Virus record (IMG/VR): IMGVR_UViG_3300008117_000001
Strand: one strand, 5' to 3'
Length of the DNA stretch: 64,000 nt
Source: a virus
The first letter of the stretch is position 1; each line of letters begins with the position of its first letter. Shown here piece by piece: positions 40,634-62,000 of the stretch. The notes beneath the pieces are model-generated. The model made no database searches. It was not told the origin of the DNA and saw only the letters and a list, made by a program, of their open reading frames with translations. Both the position numbers and the translations under genes were made by a program.

Positions 40634-40652
40634 TAGTCTTTAGTGTCGTAAG

Positions 40653-40696
40653 AATAGGTGCATGGGAGTTATCTTCCATGCACTTATTTATTTTTT
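40653..40696 (+). terminator. Intrinsic terminator after tube gene
   Basis: GTGCATGGGAG-TTAT-CTTCCATGCAC followed by TTATTTATTTTTT. Confidence 0.75.
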
Positions 40697-40706
40697 GGAG
40701 ATTTTA

Positions 40707-43115: not shown

Positions 43116-43116
43116 A

Positions 43117-43759: not shown

Positions 43760-46700
43760 TTGATTAGAGATCCAGGGCCTATTCATAACTTAGGTTATAG
43801 CGTAACATCCAGAGATGTTCCTACAATGATAGACGAAGAAAGGGGCGATGCCCCTAATTCGTCTTTTATCTCAAAGGCCTTAAATAATCACCCTGTTTTA
43901 AGATTTGTATCTACGGCAGCCACTACCATGGCTTCAGCTTTTGTTTTGTCTAAGATAACAAAACAAGGTGGTCTAAAGCTAGCCAAAACAGTTCAAGACA
44001 GAGCGGATAGTGGAGCAAGCAGATTTGCTTCAAATATTGTTAATGTATTTCCTAAAATCAGAAGAGAATTCGACGAACTTTCTGGCGTTAGCCGAATGAT
44101 AGATGGGAATACTCCTGATCAAATAGATCCTTATTCAAGACTTGTTTTTGAAACCGCAGAAGGTAAATTAACTACCGGCGTCATTAAGCATACAGATAGA
44201 GGCTATCACTGGACTGCTGGAGAAATCAGCAAAAGTGGTAAGGGTATAGAATACGAGACTGCGGGAATATGGGGCTTCCGAGAAGAAGCTCAGTCCCGTT
44301 TGGTCTCTATGGCCCGTAGAATGCCCTATGAGCTGCCAGCAATGTATGTTGGCCAGAAAGCTATAGTTGATCCAATTTTTGGCGGTAGAGACGATTCTAA
44401 GGTCAAATGGTACAATCCTGTAGACGTAGTTACGGACTTCGTTAAGGACTCTACCATTAACCTAGTTACCATGATGATTCCAATGGAGGTTGGTGGCGCT
44501 GCCATTGGCAACGCAAGGTCATCCTTATCTAATTTTAGATATTCTATGTCAGACCTAGCTAGGTCTACCGGTACAACTGATTTAAAAACAAGATCTTCAA
44601 GGGCATTTGTCAATCTAGCCGACATGTTGTCAGAGGTTGGTCATGACCTGGCAGACATAACTCAAAAGGGTTTAAAGGTTTCTGCTCAAACTAGTGGAGC
44701 AATTAAAGCTGCAACCACAGAGTATAGTCAGCAAAGAGTTGACATTAATGCAATTCTTTCGCGAACAAGAAACTTAAGAGCAAAACAGATCTATGAGGAT
44801 TCTAAGGGCTCAAAATTAAAAAGAGCTAGAAACGTAGCAACGCAGTATGCGTTTGGCAATGACGCCAGTGGCAATTCTGGGTATTTAGATTTATTTCCGG
44901 GACTAAGAGGTGTTGGAAGTGCCGTAAGGCAGGGTATAAATCAATTCCGTAAAGTTGGCTACGGCTACGATGTAATAACGAGAGCTATTGATTTTGATGC
45001 AGCTGTGCAGAGATATGGCGCAGCTAATCCAAATGCTTTTAGAACAGAACTAAAGGGAATAGTCGGCAACCTTCAGGCGAACTCCTCTAATAGAATGACG
45101 ACTATGGCTAGCAAGATTGCTAGAACATTTGGTGGTCCGGCTGGATCAGATAACTTCTATGCATCAGAGTTTTATAAGGGAATAGAACAAACTGAGTATA
45201 AAAAAGTTTTATATAAATCCTTAATGGAAAGAACTGCAACTTCAGATAGAGATGAGTTTGCAAGAACAATAGCAAAATTTGTTGACGACATTGACGTTAG
45301 CAAAACTGCAATGGAGCCCTCTAGAAGAGTAACTATAGGCGAAACCAAAATACTACTCGATGGAGATGAGCCATTTGATGAAATCATAAATAGATTCAAG
45401 GGCACTCTTGCAAAAACTAGGGCCGATGAGTTCGTACAAAAAGTCGGAAATTCTGATGTACTAAAAGATTCTATTATCGACGCTAACAGACTTTTCACTG
45501 GCGCACAATTCCAGGCAGCATTAAAAGGAAAGGCAAACAAAGCTTATAAGGCATTCCAGGAACAAGGAATGGTTAAGGTAGCTGGAAAAGTCTTAAAAAC
45601 TAAAAAAGCAGATTTTGAAGATTTCCTAGATTTAGATAATCTTTCTTACGCACAAAAAGATTTCTTAGTTAAAAGATCAGCTCAAAGATTAGGCATGAGG
45701 CTAAAGACAGCTGATGGCAGAGATTTAACAAGAGGAGAATTAGGGGAGTCTTTAGGTAAGGTCGGCCTTAACATAAAAGATGCCGGTCAATTAAGAAGTT
45801 TTCTTGTTAGAGAAAAACAAATAAGTTCGGGAGTTTTTGCTAGTGGTTTTAACCTTCTTGGATTAAGAAGAATCACTGTTGATGAAGCAAATCAACGCGG
45901 AGTTTTTGCAAATGTAGACGATGAGACCAAGCGCGTTATAAATCAAATGTCTTCCAGCATGGTAAGGGCTGATCCAACGACAACCGCTGCTAGCGTTTCT
46001 GTTCTTCCAGATGTATTTATAACTAAGACTGGTAGTATTTTAGATGTTTCTGGAATAAGACAGTCTGCAAGAAATGTTGGAAACTTTTTAGCTAACGATT
46101 TAAGAATACCAGTTCTTGGATTTAATCCGGCAGATTTGGCGGCTAAGCAATCTTTTAATGAAATGTCCGGAAGGGCTCCGTTCCAGTTTATTCAAGGTAG
46201 AGTTTCTCAGCCATTTTTACAGGGCGCTGATAAGTCGGCTGATTTCTATTTGTTCTACAGCGGAGGAAGAACAAAAGGTAATGTTATGGCATTTAATTAT
46301 AATGTCATGGCCCAGCAATATACTTCTAGGACTTTAGATGGTACATTTAGACCTTTAGCTAAGAATAGCTCGCAATTGTTAACGAGGGCAGCAAGAAACG
46401 CTGCAGCGGAAAGAGATGCTGAGTCATTAAACTCTTTAAGTTATCAAGAAGGTACATTTAGAAGCAGATTCTTTTCTGGCCTATCAAGATTTGGAATGAC
46501 GCCAGAAAGAGAATTTAGGTTTAGAGAATTTTTTGATATTAACTATGATCAGCCAAACTCTGTATTTGGCTTCTTGTCTAGATTCTCTAGAAGAAATATT
46601 GATCCAGAAAATCCAAGATTCCTTGCACAAGTGATGACTGGCAAGGAAATCCCTACCAAAGCTGGTACAGCAAAAAGAAATATAGTAAAAAGCGCTGATG

Positions 46701-49700
46701 GAACTGTAGAAAAAATTAATGTAATCGATGTTGCCTCTGGCGAAGAAATGGTTTCAGAAAAAGCCTTATTAGAAGCTTTTGAAGGATTCAGAAGAAGAAC
46801 TCGTGCAGCTGGCTTTTCTCGTCGTGCAATGAAGCGAATTGAAGAAGCTGACCCAGCATTAGCTACTTATCATGGACAAAAAATTACCGATCTTCAAAAT
46901 GTTCAGGAAAAAATAGATTTTGCTAACGTCCTGCTTAGAGGCGTAGACAGAGATGCAAATATTCTTAGAAGACAGGGCATCGATCCTGTTGCGCTATATC
47001 AAAGCGGATCCAGGATCAATAAAGTATTAGAGGAAGCAGATCTGTTGTCTGGTTCTCAAATTCGTTCTGTTAGTCCAACAATTATTTCAAGAGAAGATGA
47101 ATTAACAAATGAAATGTTTAAGTTTCTAATTCAAAGAAATGAATTAGTTTCAAATAGCACTAGACAAACATTTGGTCAAAATTTTATTAAAATAAACCAA
47201 GCACTGACAAGCATGGCAAAAGAAATACCAGCTGGTGAACTAGCTGAAGCACAAGCTGCGGCCTTTGGTGCACTAACTAACCTTAACTCGGTAAGAGCAA
47301 ATAGATCTTTCTTAAAAGAGATTGAAGTTCAAAGAAGAGCGTTAGCAAACGTTATTGAATCTTTAGAGTCTGCTCCAGAATTGGCGCAACCATTTATTAG
47401 TGGTTCCATTGAACGAGTTGGGGAAATAGGAAGACTTGGTTTATTTAAAAAATTATTATATCCATCATTAAGTACAGCTTCTTTCAAAATATCTCATCTA
47501 GCAACAGACCCACTTGGTTCCGCAACTGGCCCCGGTGCTGACGTTTTACTAGTTCCTACTTTTGGTAGCGTATTTTCTAGAAATCCAATAGGCGCCCTCA
47601 AGAGCGTTGCTGGTATTAATACGTACAGTAGTCCAGAGAGTTATTCAAATTTATCAGCCGCAGTTTCTCATGGTGTTGAAAGATTAAACAAATACTTTGG
47701 AACAGTAGGCTTACAGCTAGACGTTAATCAGTATGGTTCGCCATTAGACTTGTTTGCTAGGGGCATGGTAGGCAAGAGGGTTTTGCCACTTTATGCTGGT
47801 GGCATGGCCTTTATGACTGCTGACAGAACAATTGGCGGGATGGTCAACGAAAAAGATGCAAGAGGAGAAAGAGTTTATTCTCCATTTTTTGTCGGAGCTG
47901 CCGCAAAAGCTGTTGGAGAAATTCACGCCCTAGGAGCTGGAGCTATGCCCGGCGGTATGAGCTACGAAGAAAAGAGAGAGCAGCTTTTTGAAGGAGAAGT
48001 TCCCATAAGACAGGGTCGTTTTTGGCCCTTGGGCAATACACCCTTTATGGGCGGAAAGATAATGTATTATAGGCCCAGTATTTATCGCAAGATTGAAACT
48101 GGCGCCATGTTTACATCTGACACCTATGGTTCGCCTATTGAAAGAGCTTTATTCTATACTGATATATCACCATTGCGTCCTTTAGATCCTTATCGTTTCG
48201 AAAGAAAACACTATGAAGATAGACCGTATCCTATTACTGGAGAATATTTTTCTGGTCCATTTGGTCCGCTGACTCCCGCCTTAAATGCTACTGTTGGAAG
48301 AGTACTAAAGCCACAAATAAAAATGCATGAGCAAGAGGTTTCTCAAGCATTATCAAATTATGCTCCGGCAGGACAATCTGGCGCATATGATGCTAGCGCT
48401 TATTTGCGACAAATTTCAATGCCTATGCTTCCTGGGCAGGCTCCGCAGCAACAGTTTGGTCAAGCGTCAATTGGCGGAGCTATGCAGGGAGCAGGACCAA
48501 TTATGTCTATGGGCATGTCTTCTGGCGGACCTGGTCCGGGTATGCAGGCATCATCAAACGCCGAGCTAGCAGGTAGAGCTGGAGCTTTGAATACAGCTAA
48601 ATATTCAACGATGCAAAACATAGGGCAGATAAATAGTCAGTATGCCCAAATGGCATATGGTCCGCCGAAAACTCCTGGTATGATGCCACCAAGAATAGTT
48701 GGTGCAGGATCGCCAATTTCTGTTGGTAATCCACAGGTTCAGATACAAGAATTTGGCTATAGAACACAGGAAGCCTTGGGTATATATGGTTTTGCTGGCG
48801 CAGCATTTAGGGAATCCTTTGGTTATGGTCAGGGTGACTTTGAGCCCCAAAGGGCAGTTCTTCAGTCTGCATCTAAAGCTTACGGAATGAGTAGACAGTT
48901 TTGGGACTATAACCTTGGAGGACTTGGTGACGTTCCGATGTTGGGTGGAAGGAACTTTGGTTCAATAGAATTTTCTGAAATAACTAGAAGATTTATACCA
49001 AAAGAAAGAACTGGAGTTGATTATCTTAATCCTATACAAAATACAATGGGACAACAGTATCCATTTTTACCAGGCCCAGAATATTACTTAGACTTTACTA
49101 GAGGAGATCCGTTCACTAAAGTCCAAGAAGGAGAATTGCGTTTGCCAGGAGTGGCATACGAAAGGCTAAATCAACTTCGTTCTGATGAAACTGGAAGATA
49201 TGGTTTATTAGATCAATTTAAGATCTTAGGAGATGTTGCGCCCTACTCTAAACAATATAGATATTTAGATAAAAAAATAGATAGTTATCTTAACGACCCT
49301 TCGGAAAAATTAGAGGCAGATAACATTAGAAATAGAGTAGCCTCTATACAGCAAAAAGAAAACTTCTCCGAATATAGTCATGTTGGTAAAACAGCAGCAG
49401 AGGCTGGAACAAATCCTTTAATTCATAATATATCTCGTGCAGCAGAATATATTGCGCATAGAGATACTTTTATAAATAGAAAGTTTATTAATAAACAAAC
49501 TGCGGTTGAGGATTGGGAAAGAAACAATGTTTATGGCGCAACTTTCCCAGAATGGCAAAGGCCTTTTGAAAGCTTTGTGGAGCCAATGATAAATAAAGCA
49601 GCAGACCGCAATCCAATAGCTGCTTCTGCAAGCTTGGCTGCTGCAGGCCTTTTTGCTGGCAGGACTCAGCCAGGTAAGTTGGTTATGTCTGGCTTGGGTG

Positions 49701-50455
49701 CAGTGACTGGACTAGCAGCTTCCGCCGGGGCAAATCTTCAGGAGGCAATAACTGGGGATAGATTTATTCCAACCGAAAGAAAGAAAGAACTAGCTCTTGA
49801 AGAGTATTCTGATATTTTAACTTATGTCAAAAATACAAGACTAGCCAATATGGCTGAAGCATCTGGTGATGCAGCGGCAGCTTTCCAATTTAGTTCTGCA
49901 GCAAAAAGAACAATGTATGGTGCGCCCATACAGGATATTGGCACTGGAAAATATGGAACAGATGTTGAATCTCTTTCTCTTGCTATTCCTAAAAGAAAAA
50001 GAGAACACTTTAAGGCAATGATAAATGCTCCAGAGCAAGATAGAGAAAGAATACTTTCAACAGCTGGCAGATTAGAAAGAAGAATATACGAAGCTGCATG
50101 GGGTATGCAGGTGGAAAAGCGCCCAGAATTAACAGACTATTTCAGCAGACACGAGCTGCCAGATGAAGGCTGGGAAGGGTGGCATCCCAATACTAATATG
50201 GATTCTGTTAAAATTAAAATAGGCCAACACATGGGTCTTGAAATGTCTCAAATGGGTTACTATCCACAACAGATAAGAGAAGCAAATCTTGCTAATCCAA
50301 GCTATCCTCGGTTCGGTTACTCTTCGGACTCCAATGCAGACGTAGCATATAGATTGCGATCTTTAATGAATGGCATGGGGGTTACTGGTTCCGTAACGCC
50401 TGTGATGAATCCATTTGGTGGTCAACAAGTTGACATAAGTGCAGGAGTTAGATAA
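43760..50455 (+). CDS. Tape measure protein (2231 aa, TTG start)
   Basis: Follows chaperone pair; helical Ala/Gly-rich with hydrophobic segments. Confidence 0.75.
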   Translation: MIRDPGPIHNLGYSVTSRDVPTMIDEERGDAPNSSFISKALNNHPVLRFVSTAATTMASAFVLSKITKQGGLKLAKTVQDRADSGASRFASNIVNVFPKIRREFDELSGVSRMIDGNTPDQIDPYSRLVFETAEGKLTTGVIKHTDRGYHWTAGEISKSGKGIEYETAGIWGFREEAQSRLVSMARRMPYELPAMYVGQKAIVDPIFGGRDDSKVKWYNPVDVVTDFVKDSTINLVTMMIPMEVGGAAIGNARSSLSNFRYSMSDLARSTGTTDLKTRSSRAFVNLADMLSEVGHDLADITQKGLKVSAQTSGAIKAATTEYSQQRVDINAILSRTRNLRAKQIYEDSKGSKLKRARNVATQYAFGNDASGNSGYLDLFPGLRGVGSAVRQGINQFRKVGYGYDVITRAIDFDAAVQRYGAANPNAFRTELKGIVGNLQANSSNRMTTMASKIARTFGGPAGSDNFYASEFYKGIEQTEYKKVLYKSLMERTATSDRDEFARTIAKFVDDIDVSKTAMEPSRRVTIGETKILLDGDEPFDEIINRFKGTLAKTRADEFVQKVGNSDVLKDSIIDANRLFTGAQFQAALKGKANKAYKAFQEQGMVKVAGKVLKTKKADFEDFLDLDNLSYAQKDFLVKRSAQRLGMRLKTADGRDLTRGELGESLGKVGLNIKDAGQLRSFLVREKQISSGVFASGFNLLGLRRITVDEANQRGVFANVDDETKRVINQMSSSMVRADPTTTAASVSVLPDVFITKTGSILDVSGIRQSARNVGNFLANDLRIPVLGFNPADLAAKQSFNEMSGRAPFQFIQGRVSQPFLQGADKSADFYLFYSGGRTKGNVMAFNYNVMAQQYTSRTLDGTFRPLAKNSSQLLTRAARNAAAERDAESLNSLSYQEGTFRSRFFSGLSRFGMTPEREFRFREFFDINYDQPNSVFGFLSRFSRRNIDPENPRFLAQVMTGKEIPTKAGTAKRNIVKSADGTVEKINVIDVASGEEMVSEKALLEAFEGFRRRTRAAGFSRRAMKRIEEADPALATYHGQKITDLQNVQEKIDFANVLLRGVDRDANILRRQGIDPVALYQSGSRINKVLEEADLLSGSQIRSVSPTIISREDELTNEMFKFLIQRNELVSNSTRQTFGQNFIKINQALTSMAKEIPAGELAEAQAAAFGALTNLNSVRANRSFLKEIEVQRRALANVIESLESAPELAQPFISGSIERVGEIGRLGLFKKLLYPSLSTASFKISHLATDPLGSATGPGADVLLVPTFGSVFSRNPIGALKSVAGINTYSSPESYSNLSAAVSHGVERLNKYFGTVGLQLDVNQYGSPLDLFARGMVGKRVLPLYAGGMAFMTADRTIGGMVNEKDARGERVYSPFFVGAAAKAVGEIHALGAGAMPGGMSYEEKREQLFEGEVPIRQGRFWPLGNTPFMGGKIMYYRPSIYRKIETGAMFTSDTYGSPIERALFYTDISPLRPLDPYRFERKHYEDRPYPITGEYFSGPFGPLTPALNATVGRVLKPQIKMHEQEVSQALSNYAPAGQSGAYDASAYLRQISMPMLPGQAPQQQFGQASIGGAMQGAGPIMSMGMSSGGPGPGMQASSNAELAGRAGALNTAKYSTMQNIGQINSQYAQMAYGPPKTPGMMPPRIVGAGSPISVGNPQVQIQEFGYRTQEALGIYGFAGAAFRESFGYGQGDFEPQRAVLQSASKAYGMSRQFWDYNLGGLGDVPMLGGRNFGSIEFSEITRRFIPKERTGVDYLNPIQNTMGQQYPFLPGPEYYLDFTRGDPFTKVQEGELRLPGVAYERLNQLRSDETGRYGLLDQFKILGDVAPYSKQYRYLDKKIDSYLNDPSEKLEADNIRNRVASIQQKENFSEYSHVGKTAAEAGTNPLIHNISRAAEYIAHRDTFINRKFINKQTAVEDWERNNVYGATFPEWQRPFESFVEPMINKAADRNPIAASASLAAAGLFAGRTQPGKLVMSGLGAVTGLAASAGANLQEAITGDRFIPTERKKELALEEYSDILTYVKNTRLANMAEASGDAAAAFQFSSAAKRTMYGAPIQDIGTGKYGTDVESLSLAIPKRKREHFKAMINAPEQDRERILSTAGRLERRIYEAAWGMQVEKRPELTDYFSRHELPDEGWEGWHPNTNMDSVKIKIGQHMGLEMSQMGYYPQQIREANLANPSYPRFGYSSDSNADVAYRLRSLMNGMGVTGSVTPVMNPFGGQQVDISAGVR

Positions 50456-50457
50456 AT

Positions 50458-53400
50458 ATGATGGGAAAAATAGCATCCTTTTTACAAGGGAGACGAGAAC
50501 AGATTCCGGAATATGAATCTATTAACGATTATTTAGCCTCCTATTTGTCTCCTCTTTCTCCAGAAAAACAAGTTAGAGCCGCCAGAAGAATTTTAGGTAA
50601 AATTCCTACTGGACAGAAAAAGCTAATAGAACCATTTGTTGATCCTTCTGATAATATTTTAAAGTATAGATCAGCTTATGATGATCCGGATCCTGCAATT
50701 GGCAGAAAAGTTTTTGATACCGTTGATGATGCTATTCAGTATTTTTCTTCTCTACAGATAACAGAAGTTTATAGAATATCTAAACAAGATGTTCCAGTTG
50801 TTTATAGAGGCTATGCGGAAGTTTTGAAGGATATAGAAAGAAATGCTATTGCACAAAATCTATTTGGAATAGAAGGTTTAGAAATGAACATTGCTATTCA
50901 TAAAGGGCAAATGGATTCCCAGCAGGGCAATGAGGCGCTAAAGGCTTTCTTTAAAACGCAAAAAGAAAAAGGATATGGTCTACTCCTGCCTACTGATGAG
51001 GGGGGTGTAGCAATGAATCTTGTTGCAACAATTGCAGGAAAAAGACAGGTTTTAAATCTGGAGCAAACTTTAGAGGTAATGCAATCAGCGAATGTTTCCA
51101 TCATAGACCCAGATGTTTTAGAAGAAGCAATGAGATCTGGTAACAAAAAACTCGCCTCCTTGATTCAAAAGTTGGACAAGAGATTGCGCGGAGTGTTGTC
51201 ACCAAGAGAAATTTCTATTGCTGGCGACGCAATGAGAAGGGTCCTTGATGAAGTAGGTAAGCCAGGGATGTCATTTGCTGACTCAATTCTTAATACTGAT
51301 CCGGTTTATGAAGCATTAGGATTGGCTCTAGATGTAGATACATTAAAAAATGTTTCTACAATGAAAAATGCCGAAAAAGCCGCAGATGCTGCACAAAGAA
51401 TAAAAGATTCCTGGATGATCAAAGGAACTGATAGATCTAAAGAGTTTTACAAAACAATATTAGATGAAGTTATCCAAGGCCAAAGCGGTCCTTCAAAAAA
51501 GTTGGCTGGAAAAGAAAGTCAAATATATGCAGACGTTACAAGCTACCTCAAGATCGCAATGCAAGATGCGATAGACAGTGGAGATGTTGATATTACGGTA
51601 GGCAAATATGGTACAGATGTTCTAAAGAAAAAATTAGGCTCGTTAAAAGAAACTCTTGAGAAAAAAGCAGGAGGCAGCGAAGCTGCTCTTAAAGCAATAG
51701 ATCAAAAATTCAGTATAATTGATATTCTTCTGGATGAAATTGAAAAAGGATCAGATGGCTCAATGTTGATCAATACTCCGTATACTAAAGCTATTCAAAG
51801 AGGCTATCAAGCTGAATTAGATGAGCTAGATAAGCGTTACGCACAAGCTAAAGATAGACTAGAAAAAGAAGATATTCTTTTAAAGAAAAGAGAAATTCAA
51901 AAATCGATGAGCCAATTAGATGAATCAAAAGGTTTATCTCAAATAACTGTTCGTGGCAACGTCGTATTTGATCAGGGTGATGCAACTAGGCCTGCAAGAA
52001 TATTTTCCCTAAAAGGCGCAGCAATGGATGTTGAATTTACCGGAAGGTATACCAAGTATTCAATTGTTGCACCTAAAGCCACAACAAAGAGGGAAACAAG
52101 AATATCTGGAGTTAGAGATATACTAAATATAAGCGGAACTGGGGAGTCCAAGGGTGCAGTCTACGCAGACCCGATGCTTGATGCATTTCACTCTGCAGTA
52201 TTCGGTTCAACGCAATCGCAAAAGTTGGGCAGAGAATATTCACAGCAAGTACAAAAAGAATTAAACGCAATGTTGAAGGCAAATAGAATTGACGAAAGTA
52301 GCACCTTCTTCCAGTCTTTGCAAAGAGCTGCTAATGAAATGTCTAGCGATCTATTAGAAACTCAACAATATTCACAGCTTATGCACAGGACGTTGGCTCA
52401 AGAAATATTGGCAATACACAAGAGTGGAGTTCCGTTGGATCAGCATCCTAGGGCCATGAATAGAATTTTAGACTTTGCTCAGAAAGAATTTTTTAAACTA
52501 AAGAAAGGAATTCCCCTACCAGTAATGCCCGATGTTTACAGATTTGCCTTAAATGCAGAGTCAACTCAGGTTGGAATTTCTGGTGGAAGAATGTTCCTAG
52601 ATATGGCCGATTCTAATATAGCCATGGATGAAGGATTTAGTATAAATACTACTAGGGTAAGATTTTCTAATCACAATTTATTGATGACCGAAAGAGACGT
52701 AATAAGATTTCACCATGCACTTGGTGGGTTCGACCTTGACGACAAGGGTCTACCAGTACTTGGTACATATATGTCTAACGGTAAAAGGCGTTTGGCCATG
52801 GCAATGGCTCGTCAGCCTACGGGCGCAGGAGAAATGGTAGGATTTGTTGAATTTAGAGACGTAGAAAGCTATAGAGAATTATTTGGTCATAATAAAGACT
52901 TCCTTAAGACATTGGATCAAATGATTTTAGACGAAGAAGAAAAGTTGGCATACCTTCAGGGTTCTGGTGGCTCTCCGGCATTACAGCGATTGAATATATT
53001 AAAAGAAAATTTAACAGGCAAACTTACAGCTGAAGACATGACTCGAATTGATGAGTCAGGTATATTAGATCAGTTGGAAGAAACAATAATAGATGTTAGA
53101 GATAGACTGTATGGTGGCAAAGCTAGAACTTTTAATAGATCATATTTTGAAGCTCTCGGCGTATTAAAGCAAGGCGAAAGTACAGTCAATTTTTTTGCAG
53201 GATCAAGGCTTGTTGATTTTGCTGGAGTTGATCCAGGTTTAGCTTCTTTAGGTTTTCAAAAGTTAAAAACTGAAGTAATGACTCTAAATCTTGAAAATGA
53301 CGTCTTTACAGCCTTAGAGCATTTGATGACAGATCAGCAAAAAACTCAACTAGGGGCCATTAGGAATCAAATTGAGCAACTAAAAGAACCAGCATATGCT

Positions 53401-55542
53401 GGTAGAGCTATACCTGGTTCATTGTACGACGATCCTTCACAAGTAGCTGCGCTGGAAGAGGCTCAAACAAATTTATCTAAAGCTTCAAAAGACTTTTATA
53501 AAACACTGGATGGATTTGGTTTAGATAAAGACAAAAGAGCTATTGCAATGAACAAATATTATTTGGAAGCAATGGAAAAAGCAGCCACTGAAAATGGAAA
53601 TAATCTTGGTAGACACGTCAACAGAGCCACCGTAATTGCAGATGGCTTGAATCAATTCGAAAAAGCATTTGGATCCAATCAAGCAATAAACGACGCTTTG
53701 CGCAGTAAGGGTTATGTTATTGGTCTCCCCGCATCAGAAACTGCTGTTGACATGACTCAGACATTTACCTCTGGAAGACTAACGTTAAAAGCTGAAGCCG
53801 AAACAGCAGCAGACCTACGATATGGTATGGATATTTTTAAGAGAATGTATGGAAATAACTTTGACCTAGAAGAGCATGGGGCAGACAGCGTTAGTAGATA
53901 TGGAAAAATGTTTGGTTACCTGCAAAATAGAGAAGGAAAAACCTTTACTCTTGATAAGGCCTTAATAGATTTTGGCAAACTTAATACAGAAGACTTAAGA
54001 TCCTTTGCAGAGTCTTACATAGCTGGTGCTGAAGAAAGGATTGCAGAAGGTATAGGAATAGAAGAAGATCTAAGTACCATAAAAGCGCTTTTCAATAAGG
54101 GAGACGCACCTGGTAAGCGCCAGTTAATAGATGCGTTGACGCAAACTGGTATTATTGGAAGGGGAAACTTATCTGAGACAATTTCTGTGGCAAAAGAAGC
54201 ATTTGACTATTTAAACGCAACAAGGAAAAGATTTTCCGATAACCTAAATGAACTAAGAGATACTTTAACTGCTGGCATGGGCAAAAATGCTACGGAGGCT
54301 AGAGAGTCAGCAAGGGCTATATTGGATGCAAATAAAGAAATTTTTAAAGAGTTAAATGATTCAACTACCGCATATAGAGAGGCTCAAAAAATTCTTAACT
54401 CTGGGATAGAAGAGGGTAATTTTATCAGTGCTGCTAGAAGAGAAGAATTGTCGATAGGTTTTGAAGGCGCTAGGCTAAGAGCGGAAATACTAAAAACTGA
54501 ATTGGGTGATAATTTACTTAGTGGCATTAATGAGGTTAGATCGCAAAGGCCGTTGACCGGATTTAATTTACTTAATGCGCTTCAATTAGAGGCTTTAGAT
54601 AGGGGGATGAGCCCATATGTTTTTGAAGGACTACAGGATCTAACCGAAAATTCTAATGAAGAATTTGCAAACTTCTTTGCTAGAGTAAATATAGCTAAAA
54701 GGCAAAAAGCAGCTTATATGAAAGCTACTTCTAACTTACAGGTTCAGTCTATGGTGGACAATTTTTTTGCCACCACTTCTTCAATGAGAGATCTACTACT
54801 AGGAGATATTGTTGGAGGTACTCTTTTGGATTTATCACAATATGGTGATATTACTAGCGTTTTTTCTGCTAGTGGCATCAACATTGATGCTACCCAATTA
54901 AGGGCAGCCCTCAATGAAGGGGTAATGGATACTACAGATCAAAATATTGCAACCATAGCAAATGCGATAAGGTCTAGAGCCTTGTACGAAACGCAGATTT
55001 TAGATCCAGCAGTAGATGACTTTTTGAACGGGCAAATATCTGCAGATAAAGTAGTCGGCCCTAAAGATAGACCAACTGGTATAGTGCGAGATGTTTTAAG
55101 AGAGCTGGGGGATCAATCTCCTTCAAATGTAAATCCATCAAAATTTAAACGTTTAGACATGGATTATTTAACTGAACAGTTCTCTAAGCCATCTGTCAAA
55201 AAAGCTGCCATTGGAGCTGGCTTGTTAATAGCTGGAAGCTTTTTATATCAGAACAAAAAAGATAGAACAGCAGAAGATGCAGCTGGTCCACCATTGCTTC
55301 CAGGTGGATCAGCGTACGAAGAAGGGTATCCTACCCCAAATATATCCATGCCCCAAGTTGCCGGAGGGGGCTATTCTTCTGGAATGAGTTATAAAGTTTC
55401 TCTATATGGTTCCAGGGAAGAGGTAGAAAGATTTCAGCAAGCAGCTTCAGGAGTTACTAATGGATCAGTTAACAGTACTATGTATAACAGGATTCCCAGT
55501 GTAACGTCTGATCCATATCAGCAGCTCGCTAGTTCATTTTAA
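50458..55542 (+). CDS. Large virion protein, possible divergent double-psi-barrel RNA polymerase, with C-terminal membrane helix
   Basis: QITVRG...LKG (495-520), GGFDLDDK (756-763), RQPT (785); AAIGAGLLIAGSFLYQNKKD; CDS certain, enzymatic call tentative. Confidence 0.45.
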   Translation: MMGKIASFLQGRREQIPEYESINDYLASYLSPLSPEKQVRAARRILGKIPTGQKKLIEPFVDPSDNILKYRSAYDDPDPAIGRKVFDTVDDAIQYFSSLQITEVYRISKQDVPVVYRGYAEVLKDIERNAIAQNLFGIEGLEMNIAIHKGQMDSQQGNEALKAFFKTQKEKGYGLLLPTDEGGVAMNLVATIAGKRQVLNLEQTLEVMQSANVSIIDPDVLEEAMRSGNKKLASLIQKLDKRLRGVLSPREISIAGDAMRRVLDEVGKPGMSFADSILNTDPVYEALGLALDVDTLKNVSTMKNAEKAADAAQRIKDSWMIKGTDRSKEFYKTILDEVIQGQSGPSKKLAGKESQIYADVTSYLKIAMQDAIDSGDVDITVGKYGTDVLKKKLGSLKETLEKKAGGSEAALKAIDQKFSIIDILLDEIEKGSDGSMLINTPYTKAIQRGYQAELDELDKRYAQAKDRLEKEDILLKKREIQKSMSQLDESKGLSQITVRGNVVFDQGDATRPARIFSLKGAAMDVEFTGRYTKYSIVAPKATTKRETRISGVRDILNISGTGESKGAVYADPMLDAFHSAVFGSTQSQKLGREYSQQVQKELNAMLKANRIDESSTFFQSLQRAANEMSSDLLETQQYSQLMHRTLAQEILAIHKSGVPLDQHPRAMNRILDFAQKEFFKLKKGIPLPVMPDVYRFALNAESTQVGISGGRMFLDMADSNIAMDEGFSINTTRVRFSNHNLLMTERDVIRFHHALGGFDLDDKGLPVLGTYMSNGKRRLAMAMARQPTGAGEMVGFVEFRDVESYRELFGHNKDFLKTLDQMILDEEEKLAYLQGSGGSPALQRLNILKENLTGKLTAEDMTRIDESGILDQLEETIIDVRDRLYGGKARTFNRSYFEALGVLKQGESTVNFFAGSRLVDFAGVDPGLASLGFQKLKTEVMTLNLENDVFTALEHLMTDQQKTQLGAIRNQIEQLKEPAYAGRAIPGSLYDDPSQVAALEEAQTNLSKASKDFYKTLDGFGLDKDKRAIAMNKYYLEAMEKAATENGNNLGRHVNRATVIADGLNQFEKAFGSNQAINDALRSKGYVIGLPASETAVDMTQTFTSGRLTLKAEAETAADLRYGMDIFKRMYGNNFDLEEHGADSVSRYGKMFGYLQNREGKTFTLDKALIDFGKLNTEDLRSFAESYIAGAEERIAEGIGIEEDLSTIKALFNKGDAPGKRQLIDALTQTGIIGRGNLSETISVAKEAFDYLNATRKRFSDNLNELRDTLTAGMGKNATEARESARAILDANKEIFKELNDSTTAYREAQKILNSGIEEGNFISAARREELSIGFEGARLRAEILKTELGDNLLSGINEVRSQRPLTGFNLLNALQLEALDRGMSPYVFEGLQDLTENSNEEFANFFARVNIAKRQKAAYMKATSNLQVQSMVDNFFATTSSMRDLLLGDIVGGTLLDLSQYGDITSVFSASGINIDATQLRAALNEGVMDTTDQNIATIANAIRSRALYETQILDPAVDDFLNGQISADKVVGPKDRPTGIVRDVLRELGDQSPSNVNPSKFKRLDMDYLTEQFSKPSVKKAAIGAGLLIAGSFLYQNKKDRTAEDAAGPPLLPGGSAYEEGYPTPNISMPQVAGGGYSSGMSYKVSLYGSREEVERFQQAASGVTNGSVNSTMYNRIPSVTSDPYQQLASSF

Positions 55543-55552
55543 GGTTAATTAA

Positions 55553-55999
55553 ATGATATTAAGTGTTAAAGATCAAAATAAAACTTTAGCCTCCGCTGCA
55601 AAACAGCCAAAAGACACATCTCACAGAAGCATTACAGCAAACAAGTATGCTGCAAAGATATCTTCTAGTAAAAGTCCTTCTAAAAATGTAGTGTCTGAGT
55701 CTCGTCAAAAAATTCAGGCAACAGGTCAGTCAGATAAGGTCCGAGGTTCTTTTGAAGGTTTAGAAAATTCTTCTCCAGCTCATATCATCATGAATGAAAG
55801 TGGATATAGCGGAAAAAGGCATCAGAAAGCTAGATATTCTAAAAATATTAATACAAAATTAGGTGGCAATTTTAACTTTAATTCTTTTACAAAAGAAACA
55901 AAAAGTAGTATAATAGATAACTATAGTTCTTCTACGATGAAGGATTCTTCAAGTGAAAGATTATCTAAAATTATTAAAAATAATATGGCGTTTGTCTAA
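55553..55999 (+). CDS. Basic Ser/Lys-rich hypothetical protein
   Basis: 148-aa ORF filling the gap; highly basic, possibly disordered or DNA-binding. Confidence 0.65.
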   Translation: MILSVKDQNKTLASAAKQPKDTSHRSITANKYAAKISSSKSPSKNVVSESRQKIQATGQSDKVRGSFEGLENSSPAHIIMNESGYSGKRHQKARYSKNINTKLGGNFNFNSFTKETKSSIIDNYSSSTMKDSSSERLSKIIKNNMAFV

Positions 56000-56007
56000 G
56001 GTGAATT

Positions 56008-59000
56008 ATGTCTAATGTTGAGCAGTCAGAAAATGAAGGAGAACAGAATCTAAACTCTTCTGATCCATTGTCATATGACTATAGCCAAAAGGCTTTTATG
56101 AATATGATGATGATTGGCCCGCTTGGCTTGACTGGCAGTATTGATGACATTACAGGTAATCCACTTGAGGCAATCGAAAGGTTCTTCTCGATAACAAGAC
56201 CAGATGTTATTCCAGATTTAAAAAATTTTGATGATCCAGGTGGAGCAGAGGATTTTAAATCCGATACAGACAATTATCAAAAAAGAATTGAAGCAACCAG
56301 TAGGGTATTTACTTCTGGCGGAACATTATCTTCTCTTGTTGACGATGGCGCTCTCTTAATTAATTTATATAAGAGGCTAGAGTCAACAGGGCTACTGTAT
56401 CTTGCATCATTTGCTTATGAAATAAGTGAATTTGGCAAAAAAAGGCTTCAAAATGTTTACATGACCCAAAAGTCATTGGATTACCATGTAGATCCAGCTG
56501 TAGATACCCAATGGTTAACTCTTTTGAGTCAAGTAGTTTACAGTCTGCAAGCAGATCCAATATCTTTTTCTATTATTAATCATTACCTTCCAGGGTTAAT
56601 GACTTTCGTTTTCGATGCACTAGCTGTCACTGGCGACTATTCTAATGCCGGTAAAGGTGGGGGAAGAGAAGATACTCTCAATAGAGAAGAAGACGCGATT
56701 GAAGAGTTAGAGAAAGCTTTTGGTGTAGCGCCAAATGGTGAACCAATATTCACAATGGCGTTCAGAATTAATGGTGGGAATACTTCGGCAAGAATTCGTA
56801 AGGCTATAGAAGATTTTCCATTTAGAGCAAATATACCTCCTAAAAAGCCCGATATATTTCATCTTCGTTTAGGCGCAGCAAACTTTTATGTTCCGCCTAT
56901 TTCTGTTACAGTTAATTCGGCTTTCAAAACTGGATCACTTACTGGTGGAGCAATCAGGCAAAGAAATACACCCAAATATAATGCAGGATATAAAGAGACT
57001 TCAATTTCTCTAAGACTATTTTTTCCAAACTATCAAGAAATATGGGGCATGCACATAAGTGATGCCTCGTCAATAAATTTGAAAGAAAATTTTAAAATAG
57101 ACTTTAAGAGTAGTGGTGATTCAGAAGAAAAAATAGATAAGTTTCTTTCTTCTTTGCGAGGTCTAATTGCAGCTTTTAAATATTCACCTATACTCCCGAT
57201 AAAAAATGATTATATAAATTCTGTTCATGGAATTACCGCTGTAGCCCTATCTTCTATGTCTATTTCAACAGTGCCTAATTATCCTTTTTCTTTAATGGTT
57301 GATCTTGAGTTACTTAGCTACAATCATAAGCCATTTCTACCTATGGTTAAAGATTTTAACCAAGCCATTCACTGGGGTAAATATAGGCAGTATATGGGCA
57401 AGGCTGCTGGCGCAATGCACAAGTATGCCAATGAGTCTTTCTTGTTGAAGACTTCAGATAATAGAAATTCTGAAGAGAGCGAAGATAATACTGGCTTGAT
57501 TCGCAGTGGGGATTACATATATCAGACTAGCCCTTATGGTTCTTCAGTGACAAGCGAATCGGCAATTGTTGACTCTTCTTTGACTGATGATACAGTTGAA
57601 TTACTTAATACTTATGAGAATGATGTTTTGTATACAAATATAGTTTCTCAGTGGAGAGATGGAAGTAACTTAACTTTTTATACTCCAGCTGAAACTCAGA
57701 CAAAAATGTTCTTGCCAGACACTACTTCTTTTAGAAGTGAACAAGAAAAAATTCTAGATCAACAAAGTTATGGCCTATGGAATGGCTTATTAGCAAAATT
57801 TGGAATCGAGATTTCTCCTAATACGCCAGCAATTAAAGATATAAACCAAGTTAAGTCTCTTTCTTTGGAGCCAACATTTGCTTCTTCTACGGCAACATTT
57901 GTTCGTCAAGCAGTAGACATTATGACCGCTGGAGTTAGTCAATCTGACTACAGGGCTGGTATCTATAGGTATAAGATGCAATCCTTTATTTCCAGCAACT
58001 TAATTAAATTAAGCGCTGAAGAAAAGGAATGGCTACTAAAATACCTTAGTCCAGATGAGATGCCTTACGATGCAGATTACTTCTCGCAATATCCAACAGA
58101 GGGATCATACATTTTAAATGATCCAGTTTTTAATGATGAAAATGATAATGTTAGCTTAAACTTCATTAAAAGAAGTATATGGAATTCTGTTTTTCAATCA
58201 GGCAATATCATAGATACTTTAGTCATTGAAGAAGTTGAAAGAAGAAAAGTTTTAGGTGTCGAAATAGCTGTTCCTGACGAAGAAAAGGTGCGACAGCAAG
58301 TAACTGATGCATTCATGCTTTCCTTGTATAATCGTTTCTTTTCAGACGGTTATGTGCAGAATCTTATGGAGGCTAAGCGTTTAAGAGAGGGAGATTACCA
58401 CTTCCAGGAATGGGAAGTTCCCATGAATCGGGTTGATTTAGATCCTAAAAAAGCTATAGTCAACGGCGTTAGCATAAGTCTTGGCAACAATCTTGCAAAG
58501 CTACAGGTTCAAATGCAGGATGAGCCGACCTATCAATATATAGGCGGAAAAGATTCTTATGTTAATATATCAATGACTGTTTTTGGCGAAAGAGAGCTTT
58601 ATAAGATTAGAGCAATCTTTGATCACATTAACTCTTTAGCCAGACTTGAGCACTCAACTGGTGTTATTGGTTTCTTGGGGATGAAAAATATTATTACTGC
58701 ATTGTGCGGAATTAAATATGTTATTCCTTTGAATTTTAAAGTAGATACTATACCTAATTATCCGCACGTATACAATGTGCAATTGAGCCTTGTCGACTTT
58801 GATATATTCCAGCAGCAAAGAGAAAAGCTTTCATCAAAACAGCAAAGTGATTTTATTGAACATTTTGGTTCAAAGAGAAATCCATTTTTAAGAATTAAGC
58901 AGTTGTGGGGAGCGTTTAATGCATATCCCGATATGCCACTGGAGGTTCGCGATAAAAATGATGAAGTCGTTGGAAACTTAGATCCAGATTTTTATTTTAG

Positions 59001-62000
59001 AAGCTTTGAAATGTTCGATAAAGATGTTATTAATAACTTCATTTATCAACCCGATATAACAAAAGAATTCAAATTTGATTACAGTGATGATTGGGCAAAG
59101 CTCGGGGATGCTCGCGCTATAGAGATCAGAAAAAATCAAGTTAAAAATAGAATTACAGATTTCCTTAGACGCTACGCCTATAGGGATGTTGGAAGCGAAC
59201 CATTTGCCGCAGCTCAAAGAGCTAGCAACAATCAGACATTAATAAATGAAATTATTAGCTACGTTAACAGTAGCGGTATAAGTGTTCATAATTTTGTTTC
59301 TTTATTTCAAGAAGTTATACAAACTCAAACTTCTGAATTTGAAACTTCAGAAAAACAAGGATTATTAACTGACTACATCTTTATTGCAGCACAATCCACA
59401 GAGGATAGTCCAGTATTTGAAGAAATTGTTGGAGCAGGCTATTCTGTTGGTAATCTAAAATATACAAGCGCAGAAACTTTAAATTTAATTAAAGAAGTTT
59501 TATCAGATTCACACTTGGCAAACGAAACAGAAGTTAGCTTTAATCCAGATGAAGTAGATTTCCATAAAGTGATATATATGATTCCGGCAACAAATCCGCA
59601 AGAATCTGGATCAGAATCAGAAGTACCTGCAATGATGCAGTCTGCATTGGGGACCCATTTTGGTTATATCAATAAAGATAATGGAAGATTCTATCTAACA
59701 GTCGATGGTTCAAATGTTCATATAGATGACAACGGGAATAAGAGACTAGCAGAAAATCATATAGAAGATACACAAACTCCAGATAGGGGTTGCACAAATA
59801 CGCTTACTGGAGTTGAGGGCGTACAATCTCTGGATAAATATCAAAAAGCTTATGATGGATCTTTTGGTGGCCACATACAGAAGATGATGAATGATGTCCA
59901 GTATCGAGACATTTCTGGAAGAATGATTAGAGCATTTCCTACTTATATGTTGTGGCTAATTGACGAAGGTGGCTTTTTTGCCGGAGTTAAGCTGTTTGAC
60001 AATTTTTATGGAATGCAATCTATAGTAGATTTTTCTGTTGTATCTTCAGAAGATCTTCTAGGGGACACGTTAATATTTAGAGTGTCCAACATGTATTCAA
60101 AGTTGACTACTCGTCCTTCTACAGAAATATTTAATTCTAGAGACAATCAACCAAGCGATGCACCAATAGATTTTACTCAAGGCATTGAATCTATCTTGGA
60201 TAGAACTTTAAATATAGCTAAAAATATTGTTTCTGGAATGAGAAACGATTATGTAATTGACATTAACAATATTAGACTAAAGCCTGGTGTTCGTGTTCAT
60301 CTAAGAGTCGGATATGGAGCAAATCCAAATTCTCTACAAACAGTTTTCAATGGCGTCATAACAAATGTTGAGCAAGGAGAAATCGTAACAGTTACTGCGC
60401 AGTCTGACGCTATTGAGCTTGGCGCAATAGTTAACTCTACAAACAAAAAAGGTGACACTGGAAAAATAGATGGTGGCATAGATACAGGAATGTATCTTTC
60501 TGAGCCTAGAGATCTTATGGTGAGACTTCTTTCTATGGGTGCGTCAAGATTTAGAGAAGCTTTTGCTAGAGCCACAAATGGAACTGTTTTTTCTGAAAAT
60601 AGATTTGGAATTCGTCATTTTGGTTCAACGTTATATGAACCATTAAGCGAATCTGAAAGAGCAAGAGCTGATGGAATTAGAAATGTAGTCGCTAGTGTTT
60701 ACTCTAACCTTGGACAAGGCGATGTAGGTGGTGCTGCTAATGCCGCATCATTTAAATTAGCTACAAATGTTTTCACAAACAACCCTGTTAGTACATTTTT
60801 CGGAGATGGAAGAATTATGACAAGCATGGGGCAACTCATGTCAAACTTCTGTGCCGAAGTAGACTTGGAAATATTTAAGAGAAATATTTATCCTGGAAAT
60901 GGAACAGGTTTTGCCCAATTCCTTGGTGGAGATATAGATGATGGGTGGCTTACTGCGTCCTCTCTTGTGGAACAGGATGACAAGAAATTAAAGGGACAAG
61001 GGTACCTTGAAAGAGGTGTCGATAGATCATGGAATCGACTTATAGTTGAAGCTCAAAATGAGTCTGTTTCAGCGAGGACGGCCATAGGAACAATGACAGC
61101 TGGCAACAAGCTCGTAGCTGCTGAAGGTAGAGCTAACGCTACAAAAAATATACTTATGGGTGGCTTAGCTGGTTCTATCGGATTGATACCTGGAGTAAGT
61201 TTTGCTGCTGGAGCAGGAATTTCTGGGGGAGGTCTTTTTGGAATTCTCAGAGGAAGAGGCGGAACAAACTTCTTTAGGTTAATGGGAATTATCGCACCAA
61301 ATGCTGACGACGACCTACCTGGTTTTGATGAGGTTTCATTTAGAGCGCAAACATACATGAGAACTGTTTGGGATCTTTTCCAAGTTTGTGCCCGATTGCT
61401 TCCAAACTATATTGTTGCAATTAGACCATTTGAAGATAGATCTACAATTTTTTATGGTAAACCGCACTGGCTTTATACTTCTGGAGTTGTTCCTGTAACT
61501 ACAGGATTTCCTAGTACAGAGAGGGGATCTGAATTAAGTTTGCCAGGCTATCCAAAGTATCGTTCGCCGGACGAAGACATCGAAAATATCATGAATAACA
61601 TCAACAAATCCAGTAACACATTGGCTGACTATGAGGCGTTCAAGAGGTCTAATGAACTTTCTGATACAATGGCCAGTCTTGCGAGTGATCAGTTGAATTC
61701 CGAAGGTGTCTATAAGCCTACGGCATTTTTGAAAGAAAAAATAATTAACTTTAACTCACCGTTAGCTGCAACATTTTCTGAAACACAGCAAGATGGTTCA
61801 ACTAAAATAGTTGCAAAACTACCAACGGTTGTTGGATTAACAAGAGTTGGTTTCCACCTTCCTGTTGGAGATCCCACAACAACAATAGCTCAGGCAGGCG
61901 ATAATCACGCCCAATTAGACAATCTTCCACCAAGATTTAGGTACCCATTCTATACTATAAATGAAACAGTAATATTAGACACGACATCATATACCGTTAG

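What the first reader, a model, noticed from the sequence alone, without database searches (positions are those of the whole stretch)
50458..55542. Candidate virion-packaged RNA polymerase next to the tape measure, with a non-canonical DLDD catalytic loop
Seen: Q495-ITVR-G...L-K519-G, a helix followed by G756-G-F-D-L-D-D-K763 and a strand, and R785-QPT. Known: cellular RdRP and YonO-type single-chain double-psi-beta-barrel polymerases carry Q-x-R...KG and GGDLDGD; beta' carries R-x-P-T and DFDGD; crAss-like phages and Thermus P23-45 package such enzymes, in P23-45 fused to the tape measure. Inference: this protein is an injected polymerase or degenerate relic. Caveats: DLDD is not DxDxD and RQPT lies after, not before, the Asp loop, so the barrel would be permuted or catalytically altered. 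A C-terminal membrane helix suggests a membrane-tethered enzyme after injection.
Basis: partly seen in the sequence, partly recalled or inferred. Interest (0 to 1): 0.82.

Follow-up and report, generated by a model that had tools for sequence, protein, structure and literature searches.

The report
Tail protein with polymerase-like core
A 1,694-residue protein in the tail gene block of a large uncultured phage has a strongly conserved core whose predicted fold most resembles the two-barrel RNA polymerases, so these phages may inject their own polymerase through a contractile tail. No activity has been shown.

Summary
They belong to a family with at least 219 cluster representatives. F-D-x-D-D, R-[Q/D]-P and E792 are kept in every representative examined that covers the site; R695 and D571 are invariant in the 40-sequence core alignment.

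No sequence method links the family to any known one. AlphaFold models of the core (pLDDT 75-77) weakly but repeatedly retrieve single-chain two-barrel RNA polymerases. These are the only solved structures that align across both beta domains:
- Maize RDR2.
- P74-26 gp62.
- P23-45 gp96.
- crAss-like giant proteins, from the viral library.

The second barrel has the canonical beta-beta-alpha-beta x2 order, with the Asp loop in the usual place, so it is not permuted. R-Q-P sits on an extra hairpin after the barrel. DLDD reads best as DxDxD with one residue deleted.

By synteny the gene occupies the slot of the published tape measure of Bacillus phage 0305phi8-36. It ends in a hydrophobic helix and a highly conserved tail. 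It is therefore probably the tape-measure-like protein itself, not its neighbour, which makes it a parallel to P23-45 gp96.

Catalysis, virion packaging and residue geometry are untested. I call it a new variant of a known kind, with moderate confidence. Other first readers flagged the same family on other genomes; none had been followed up.

The parts
50458..55542 (+). Whole ORF, 1694 aa (P0001); member of a conserved family of 1400-1850 aa proteins
50458..51744 (+). N-terminal region, residues 1-429; moderately conserved, fold not examined
51745..51927 (+). Strand 435-439 preceded by near-invariant D433-G434, then helical hairpin 440-489. The start of the QDE-1 alignment range (model 1 to QDE-1 706) would place D433 at QDE-1 D709 if that stretch is ungapped (inference from ranges only)
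51928..52188 (+). First beta domain, residues 491-577: strands 496-505 (Q495, T497, R499), 514-525 (K519), short strands near K544, and 567-569, then invariant D571-P572. Candidate DPBB-B (beta-like barrel)
52210..52488 (+). Helical connector, residues 585-677, between the two beta domains
52492..52851 (+). Second beta domain, residues 679-798. Order: strands 685-694 and 696-700 (invariant R695 between them), helix 701-708, strand 719-723, strands 728-737 and 740-743, helix 745-750, Asp loop, strand 763-773, then an extra hairpin 776-786/793-798. Candidate DPBB-A
52723..52746 (+). G756-G-F-D759-L-D761-D762-K763, the candidate metal-binding loop. F-D-x-D-D is invariant in the family
52810..52821 (+). 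R785-Q-P787-T at the tip of the extra hairpin. R-[Q/D]-P and E792 are invariant
52861..55137 (+). Residues 802-1560. Mostly helical where modelled (802-1000). Holds the length-variable segments (about 961-1000, 1281-1320, 1441-1480). Candidate 'tape' part
55204..55248 (+). Hydrophobic, membrane-helix-like segment, residues 1583-1597, flanked by Lys
55285..55542 (+). C-terminal module, residues 1610-1694 (GPPLLPGGSAYE..YP ... STMYNRIP ... DPY ... F/Y end). The most conserved part of the family
43760..50455 (+). Upstream 2231-aa protein. Its C-terminal half is homologous to 0305phi8-36 gp145 (virion protein). Its length is nearly constant (2134-2247 aa) in 73 related loci. Its stop is 2 nt before the start of this ORF
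42558..43746 (+). Two small genes (185 and 209 aa) in the position of the 0305phi8-36 tail chaperonin pair orf143/144
55553..55999 (+). Conserved 148-aa protein that always follows this ORF
56008..63999 (+). Downstream giant protein, more than 3170 aa in relatives. Homologue of 0305phi8-36 gp147, the T4 gp27-like baseplate hub with lysin domains

Best explanation
The ORF encodes a tail-lumen, tape-measure-like virion protein of a contractile-tailed jumbo phage. It carries, at residues about 430-840, a divergent single-chain two-barrel nucleotide polymerase module.

Proposed mechanism (inferred, not shown): the protein is assembled in the tail between the chaperone-dependent tube and the gp27-like hub, held there by its conserved C-terminal module. 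On sheath contraction it is expelled ahead of the DNA, and the hydrophobic segment 1583-1597 lodges it at the inner membrane. The two-barrel module then synthesises RNA on the entering genome, either for pre-early transcription or to help pull the DNA in.

Proposed catalytic residues:
- D759, D761 and D762 hold the metal ions. The loop reads as DxDxD shortened by one residue.
- D433 would be the fourth acidic ligand, from the first barrel.
- R499, K519 and K544 would hold the product and NTP phosphates.
- The invariant R785-x-P787 hairpin would take over the role of the canonical upstream R-x-P gate loop, which is absent here.
For: Fold:
- Model of residues 430-1000: pLDDT 75.5, pTM 0.67. Model of 491-838: pLDDT 77.5.
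- Foldseek against PDB, model 1: ranks 1-3 are QDE-1 (7y7p, 2j7n) and maize RDR2.
- BFVD: after three uncharacterised phage proteins come crAss-like giant proteins and a phage 'RNA-dependent RNA polymerase'. The cr50_1 giant protein contains the gp66-type polymerase core by tblastn.
- The ends of the alignment ranges put the DLDD loop within about one residue of QDE-1 D1007-D1011, and R499 at R738.

Topology: the second barrel reads beta-beta-alpha-beta twice, with the Asp loop between helix 2 and strand 6. That is where the known enzymes carry DxDxD.

Conservation: acidic and basic residues are invariant across the family, as expected of an active site.

Context:
- Gene order from tail tube to hub is identical in 73 loci.
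- The neighbours are homologous to 0305phi8-36 gp145 and gp147.
- The slot is that of orf146, assigned as tape measure and found in virions by mass spectrometry.
- P23-45 gp96 is a precedent for a polymerase fused to a tape measure.
- Four related genomes, three of them 92-100% complete, show no Rpb1-type or T7-type polymerase and no sigma-70 region 2. The T7-type search had no positive control.
Against: - No sequence method connects the family to polymerases: Pfam, PHROGs, NCBIfam, PDB sequences, the RdRP model, and hhalign against gp66, gp64, gp96 and a crAss core profile.
- The defining DxDxD is not met. No member of the family has it.
- The canonical R-x-P upstream of the loop is missing.
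- I could not inspect coordinates, so clustering of the proposed residues is unverified.
- No recurrent long promoter-like word was found upstream of genes in a close relative, while TATAAT-like words recur. This fits use of the host polymerase for many genes.
- In some related contigs the ORF is broken by frame changes, once inside the second barrel.
Confidence: 0.45

Rival explanations
1. The protein is mainly the tail tape measure or tail-lumen scaffold. Its two-barrel-like core descends from a polymerase but is a relic or has been re-purposed, for example as a nucleic-acid or nucleotide-binding plug or a DNA-end pilot. It does not synthesise RNA.
For: - It occupies the tape-measure slot.
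- It has a helical, length-variable C-terminal half, a hydrophobic segment and a conserved end.
- The metal loop lacks the canonical DxDxD, and the upstream R-x-P gate is missing.
- No phage-specific promoter word was found.
Against: Three Asp, two Arg, one Glu, one Pro and several Lys stay invariant or nearly so down to about 20% identity. That is unusual for a relic and typical of a working active site. The third Asp moves by only one position, and the best local profile alignment reads this as a single-residue deletion.
Confidence: 0.25
2. The fold resemblance is coincidental. The core is an enzyme domain of another kind that uses a DxDD metal site, embedded in a tail protein as many tape measures carry lytic or other domains. 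Examples would be a nuclease, a phosphoesterase, or a cell-envelope hydrolase built on a barrel such as an MltA/3D-type domain.
For: - The fold scores are individually insignificant.
- No sequence link to polymerases was found.
- The motif resembles several other acidic motifs when read alone (my own reading, not tested).
Against: No hydrolase, nuclease or lytic family appears among the fold matches with comparable coverage. The only matches that cover both beta domains are polymerases of four different families, out of 48,161 representatives. The beta-beta-alpha-beta x2 order with the Asp loop before strand 6 fits DPBB-A specifically. Lysin domains are already carried by the hub protein downstream.
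Confidence: 0.22
3. The protein is not a virion component. It is a non-structural enzyme or assembly factor that merely lies in the tail operon.
For: No proteomic data exist for this phage or its close relatives. The assignment rests on synteny alone.
Against: The gene is start/stop-coupled to a homologue of a virion protein and lies between that gene and the hub in all 73 loci. Its positional counterpart in 0305phi8-36 was detected in virions. Only the two small genes upstream fit the chaperone role.
Confidence: 0.06

Closest known systems
Thermus phage P23-45 gp96 (tape measure protein with an N-terminal virion two-barrel RNA polymerase; PDB 8H2M; PMC10770324)
   Different: gp96 has the canonical DFDGD and an upstream R-N-P. 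It is 5002 aa, belongs to a siphovirus with an 800-nm tail, and has demonstrated activity. There is no sequence similarity. Here the tail is contractile (sheath gene), the loop is DLDD and R-x-P follows the loop.
Cellular RNA-dependent RNA polymerases QDE-1 and RDR2 (PDB 2J7N, 7Y7P, 7W82)
   Different: The Pfam RdRP model finds nothing in related genomes even at E 10. QDE-1 has DYDGD and R962-x-P964 placed 45 residues upstream. The eukaryotic enzymes have head, neck and slab domains for which no counterpart was identified here.
crAss-like phage virion RNA polymerase (phi14:2 gp66, PDB 6VR4)
   Same: It is a virion-packaged single-chain two-barrel enzyme inside a giant protein, and its motif ends D-K followed by a strand (GSDFDIDK against GGFDLDDK). 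crAss-like giant proteins appear in the BFVD fold matches. The only local profile alignment falls on this loop.
   Different: The hhalign probability is only 0.2-0.3. gp66 is a podovirus cargo protein, not in a tape-measure slot. It has an invariant R-I-P upstream.
Bacillus phage 0305phi8-36 gp146 (hypothetical tape measure protein)
   Same: It holds the same position between the gp145 homologue and the gp27-like hub, one gene after the paired tail chaperonin genes. It also has a hydrophobic helix about 110-130 residues from the C-terminus.
   Different: There is no detectable sequence similarity. gp146 has no DxDD or DxDxD and no R-Q-P motif. It is 2537 aa.

Membership tests
Two-barrel (double-psi beta-barrel) RNA polymerases, single-chain branch | Two double-psi beta-barrel domains in the order DPBB-B, connector, DPBB-A, forming one cleft | tested here: inconclusive
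Two-barrel (double-psi beta-barrel) RNA polymerases, single-chain branch | DxDxD metal-binding motif between helix 2 and strand 6 of DPBB-A | tested here: not met
   The loop is in the right place but reads F-D-L-D-D-K. D-x-D-D is invariant in the family and no member has DxDxD. The best local profile alignment treats it as DxDxD with one residue deleted, at an insignificant score.
Two-barrel (double-psi beta-barrel) RNA polymerases, single-chain branch | R-x-P gate loop about 35-45 residues upstream of the Asp loop | tested here: not met
   It is present in gp64, gp96, gp66 and QDE-1. Here the stretch between helix 701-708 and strand 728 is variable and has no R-x-P. The invariant R695 lies 64 residues upstream without a Pro. 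An invariant R-[Q/D]-P lies 23 residues downstream on an extra hairpin.
Two-barrel (double-psi beta-barrel) RNA polymerases, single-chain branch | Conserved basic residues (two Lys, or Q/R plus Lys) and an acidic residue in DPBB-B | tested here: inconclusive
   R499, K519, K544 and D433 are kept in at least 90% of sequences, and D571 is invariant. Equivalence to QDE-1 R738, K743/K767 and D709 is inferred only from the ends of the alignment ranges.
Two-barrel (double-psi beta-barrel) RNA polymerases, single-chain branch | Bridge helix and trigger loop after DPBB-A | tested here: inconclusive
   Helices 802-810 and 813-833 follow the barrel. No alignment to a bridge helix was obtained.
Two-barrel (double-psi beta-barrel) RNA polymerases, single-chain branch | Template-dependent RNA synthesis | not testable with these tools
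   Needs purified protein.
Phage tail tape measure proteins | Gene lies between the tail chaperone pair and the baseplate hub, after sheath and tube | tested here: met
   The order sheath, tube x2, 333 aa, 185 aa, 209 aa, 2231 aa, this ORF, 148 aa, hub homologue holds in 73 loci. It is the same slot as 0305phi8-36 orf146, one gene removed from the chaperonin pair.
Phage tail tape measure proteins | Long, mostly helical polypeptide whose length sets the tail length | tested here: inconclusive
   Residues 802-1000 are predicted helical. Residues 1000-1560 were not modelled. The first 840 residues are globular or mixed. Family length varies from 1436 to 1844 aa, whereas the upstream 2231-aa protein is nearly constant. 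No tail lengths are known.
Phage tail tape measure proteins | Hydrophobic, membrane-active segment near the C-terminus | tested here: met
   Residues 1583-1597 have a mean hydropathy of 1.81 over 15 residues and are conserved in the family. 0305phi8-36 gp146 has a comparable segment.

The most novel reading that the evidence does not exclude
This is a previously undescribed family of active two-barrel polymerases. Its metal loop is DxDD, and its R-x-P gate has moved to a hairpin after the catalytic loop. It is built into the tape-measure-like protein of a widespread clade of uncultured jumbo myoviruses and is delivered through a contractile tail to transcribe, or pull in, the entering genome.
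Probability: 0.4. Interest if true: 0.82.

Novelty: new variant of a known kind. Interest (0 to 1): 0.68.

Why it matters
All known two-barrel polymerases, from cellular RNA polymerases to PolD, QDE-1, YonO, crAss gp66 and the P23-45 enzymes, use a DxDxD loop. An active family with DxDD and a relocated R-x-P gate would widen the known chemistry and evolutionary range of the fold.

It would also be only the second case of a polymerase built into a tape-measure-type protein, and the first in a contractile-tailed phage. That raises the question of how an 840-residue globular module travels through a tail tube.

The related genomes, up to about 216 kb, show no other recognisable polymerase or sigma factor. 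The protein is therefore the only candidate for phage-autonomous early transcription in this clade. The family is large enough (219 cluster representatives, 73 viral contigs) to give many constructs for a direct biochemical test.

Tried and rejected
Sequence searches of the whole protein found nothing: Pfam, PHROGs, NCBIfam, PDB sequences and tblastn against 50,697 phage records.

Profile searches of the core also found nothing relevant. The PDB sequence search gave only chance matches to helices. None of the 40 members scanned against Pfam hit a polymerase family.

hhalign gave probabilities of 0.1-0.3 against every target:
- phi14:2 gp66
- 0305phi8-36 gp146
- Moorella phage MTATph1 CDS0027, the positional counterpart
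- P23-45 gp64 and gp96
- a nine-member crAss core profile

The short gp64 match (PVM.D..R.A) lies downstream of that enzyme's catalytic loop, so I reject it as chance.

Other searches that gave nothing:
- The Pfam RdRP, Rpb1 domain 2, sigma-70 region 2 and T7-type polymerase models found nothing in four related genomes. The T7-type search had no positive control.
- The ESM Atlas gave no usable hit, and its structure library was not available.
- No relative was found in 185,579 prokaryotic species genomes, so there is no host clue.
- No paralogue of the core exists in related genomes, so there is no second, non-virion copy.
- There are no internal repeats, and no domains shared with other proteins of the window.
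- A crude search for recurrent words upstream of 81 genes of a 79%-identical relative gave no long shared motif. Only TATAAT-like words recur.

By eye I considered Toprim (E...DxDxxG), HAD (DxDxT), archaeo-eukaryotic primase (hDhD...sxH), metallophosphatase (GDxxDRG/GNH) and PD-(D/E)xK readings of the motif. In each, the order or the partner motifs do not fit the invariant residues. None was tested beyond that.

No whole genome is held for the window.
Full report
**Observation**

The ORF at 50458-55542 (+) is real and encodes 1694 aa. Its ATG follows an AGGAG by 10 nt and the stop codon of the upstream gene by 2 nt, so the two genes are tightly coupled. The protein has no Cys and almost no Trp. 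The only hydrophobic stretch is 1583-1597, which is short for a membrane helix. No DxDxD occurs in this protein or its giant neighbours.

**The family**

Pfam, PHROGs, NCBIfam, PDB sequences and tblastn against deposited phages give nothing. A word-based search found 28 full-length relatives down to 34% identity, and in them all the motifs are invariant. A pattern scan of IMG/VR gave 73 loci on contigs of up to 216 kb.

From these I built a 40-sequence alignment of residues 430-1000 (A2, down to about 20% identity).
- Invariant: V568, D571, R695, L755, G756-D762, R785, Q786, P787, E792.
- Kept in at least 90%: D433, G434, R499, K519, K544, E701, K763.

The loci had been fetched with the motif as the search pattern, so I checked conservation on a set found independently. 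An exhaustive HMM search of 1.84 billion representatives returned 219 hits. Of the 148 newly returned representatives examined, every one that covers the site keeps F/Y-D-x-D-D followed, with one exception, by R-x-P. K763 varies and Q786 can be Asp. This looks like an active site, and no member has the canonical DxDxD.

**Context**

The window is a myovirus-type morphogenesis block: terminase, portal, major capsid protein, sheath and two tube paralogues. All 73 loci have the same order: tube, tube, 333 aa, 185 aa, 209 aa, about 2200 aa, this ORF, about 150 aa, more than 3170 aa.

The C-terminal half of the 2231-aa neighbour matches gp145 of Bacillus phage 0305phi8-36 and its relatives. The downstream giant matches gp147. 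In that phage's record gp145 and gp146 are virion proteins by mass spectrometry. orf146, which sits exactly where this ORF sits, is the 'hypothetical tape measure protein', and orf143/144 are the tail chaperonins. The published analysis assigns orf146 as tape measure on length. It notes that it is one gene removed from the chaperonins, and it identifies gp147 as the T4 gp27-like hub (PMC2147016).

This ORF has no sequence similarity to gp146. Both, however, carry a hydrophobic helix 110-130 residues from the C-terminus. Here the last 120 residues are the best conserved part of the whole family.

So the ORF is most likely the tape-measure-like, tail-lumen protein itself, not a neighbour of the tape measure. 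A caveat is that the upstream protein has the more constant length (2134-2247 aa against 1436-1844 aa). Which of the two is the ruler remains open.

**Fold**

Structure prediction ran on the third attempt. The model of 430-1000 has pLDDT 75.5 and pTM 0.67. A second model of 491-838 has pLDDT 77.5. Both show, in order:
- a strand at 435-439;
- a helical hairpin, 440-489;
- a first beta domain (strands 496-505 and 514-525, and shorter ones up to 569);
- a helical connector, 585-677;
- a second beta domain.

The second domain reads strand 685-694, strand 696-700, helix 701-708, strand 719-723, strand 728-737, strand 740-743, helix 745-750, loop with GGFDLDD, strand 763-773. That is the beta-beta-alpha-beta x2 order of a double-psi barrel. 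The Asp loop lies between helix 2 and strand 6, where gp64, gp96, gp66 and QDE-1 carry theirs. An extra hairpin (776-786 and 793-798) follows, with R785-Q-P at its tip. The barrel is therefore not permuted. The R-x-P sits on an added element, and the canonical R-x-P site upstream is a variable loop in this family.

**Fold searches**

- Foldseek against PDB, model 1: QDE-1 (twice) and maize RDR2 at ranks 1-3, but at E 0.1-0.3.
- Foldseek on the trimmed model is weaker. RDR2 is at rank 7 but has the highest probability and TM-score in the list.
- BFVD: three uncharacterised uncultured-phage proteins match significantly (E 8e-9 to 2e-5). Then come giant proteins of crAss-like phages cr130_1, cr4_1, cr131_1 and cr50_1, and a phage 'RNA-dependent RNA polymerase'. 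I confirmed by tblastn that the cr50_1 giant protein contains the gp66-type polymerase core.

Each score alone is within the noise range stated by the tools. What carries weight is that four distinct two-barrel polymerase families, a handful among 48,161 clusters, recur at the top across two models and three methods, and nothing else covers both domains.

The ends of the alignment ranges are also consistent with the proposed residue equivalences: model 1 to QDE-1 706, model 278 to 1017. If those terminal stretches are ungapped, D433 falls on D709, R499 on R738, and the DLDD loop within a residue of D1007-D1011. The QDE-1 landmarks are from PMC9508822. This is inference from ranges, because I could not see residue-level alignments or coordinates.

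**Sequence-level links**

Sequence-level links to polymerases remain absent. The single local alignment between the core profile and a nine-member crAss polymerase profile pairs GGFDLD-DK with GSDFDIDK. This reads the loop as DxDxD with one residue deleted. Its probability is 0.2. Two conserved Asp-rich motifs attract each other in profile scoring, so it is at most a hint about register.

**Does the phage need such an enzyme?**

Four related genomes, three of them 92-100% complete, have no Rpb1-type domain, no T7-type polymerase and no sigma-70 region 2. The T7-type search had no positive control. Each has a single copy of the core. A crude look at 81 upstream regions of a 79%-identical relative found no long recurrent word, only TATAAT-like ones. 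Much of the genome is therefore probably read by the host enzyme. A handful of pre-early promoters would escape this test.

**Verdict**

- The core is probably (about 65-70%) a divergent two-barrel polymerase fold.
- The protein is probably (about 85%) a virion tail-lumen protein in the tape-measure slot.
- Whether it is catalytically active with a DxDD loop is open.

I put the full chain of claims, an injected and active polymerase, at about 0.45. The main rivals are a re-purposed or inactive relic inside a tape measure (0.25) and an unrelated metal-dependent enzyme domain whose fold resemblance is coincidental (0.22).

The closest functional parallel is P23-45 gp96 (PMC10770324). The closest structural matches are the cellular RdRPs. 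Because the defining DxDxD and upstream R-x-P were tested and not met, I do not file it as an ordinary member. If real, it is a new variant of the two-barrel polymerase kind. No paper in the library describes this family.

Several first readers of this scan flagged the same family on this and other genomes. None of those notes had been followed up, and they are not independent evidence.

Noticed in passing
L027, L032, L033, L038, L048, L050, L054, L057, L062, L066 (related loci): In more distant relatives the homologous gene is read as two overlapping ORFs in different frames, with the break at different places. Often it comes just after the core (about query residue 822). In L054, from a contig rated 100% complete, it falls inside the second barrel between R695 and the Asp loop. 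This could be assembly error, programmed frameshift or a real split.
   Followed up: partly
window 43760-50455: The upstream 2231-aa protein keeps an almost constant length (2134-2247 aa) across 73 very divergent loci. It has no family or solved-structure match, and only its C-terminal 900 residues are shared with Bacillus phage 0305phi8-36 gp145 and Acinetobacter phage ME3. The constant length could mean a ruler function.
   Followed up: partly
window 55553-55999: A 148-aa protein with no family match always sits between this ORF and the hub homologue in the related loci. 0305phi8-36 has no counterpart at that place.
   Followed up: no
window 39971-41504 and 40652-40689: There are two tail-tube paralogues (37% identical). 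PHROGs labels their family 'major head protein', as do the deposited records of 0305phi8-36 and MTATph1. A strong terminator-like hairpin (17 pairs) lies between them.
   Followed up: no
window 56008-63999 (runs off the window): The hub homologue exceeds 3170 aa in relatives. It has a hydrophobic segment near residue 1715 and matches PHROG 20474 ('endolysin') over residues 1290-1541.
   Followed up: partly
window 17495-20533: A 1012-aa protein with seven He_PIG Ig-like repeats and a C-terminal glycine-rich domain, likely a fibre or decoration protein.
   Followed up: no
G001-G004 (related phage genomes of 180-216 kb): None shows an Rpb1-type domain, a T7-type polymerase or a sigma-70 region 2. 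In G001 genes run on the + strand from about 7 to 144 kb and on the - strand from about 147 to 194 kb.
   Followed up: partly
L095 (crAss-like phage cr6_1, NC_055894.1 71003-72382): The polymerase-core segment of this crAss-like phage has six in-frame stops under table 11, which fits stop-codon recoding in that phage. It is unrelated to the window.
   Followed up: no
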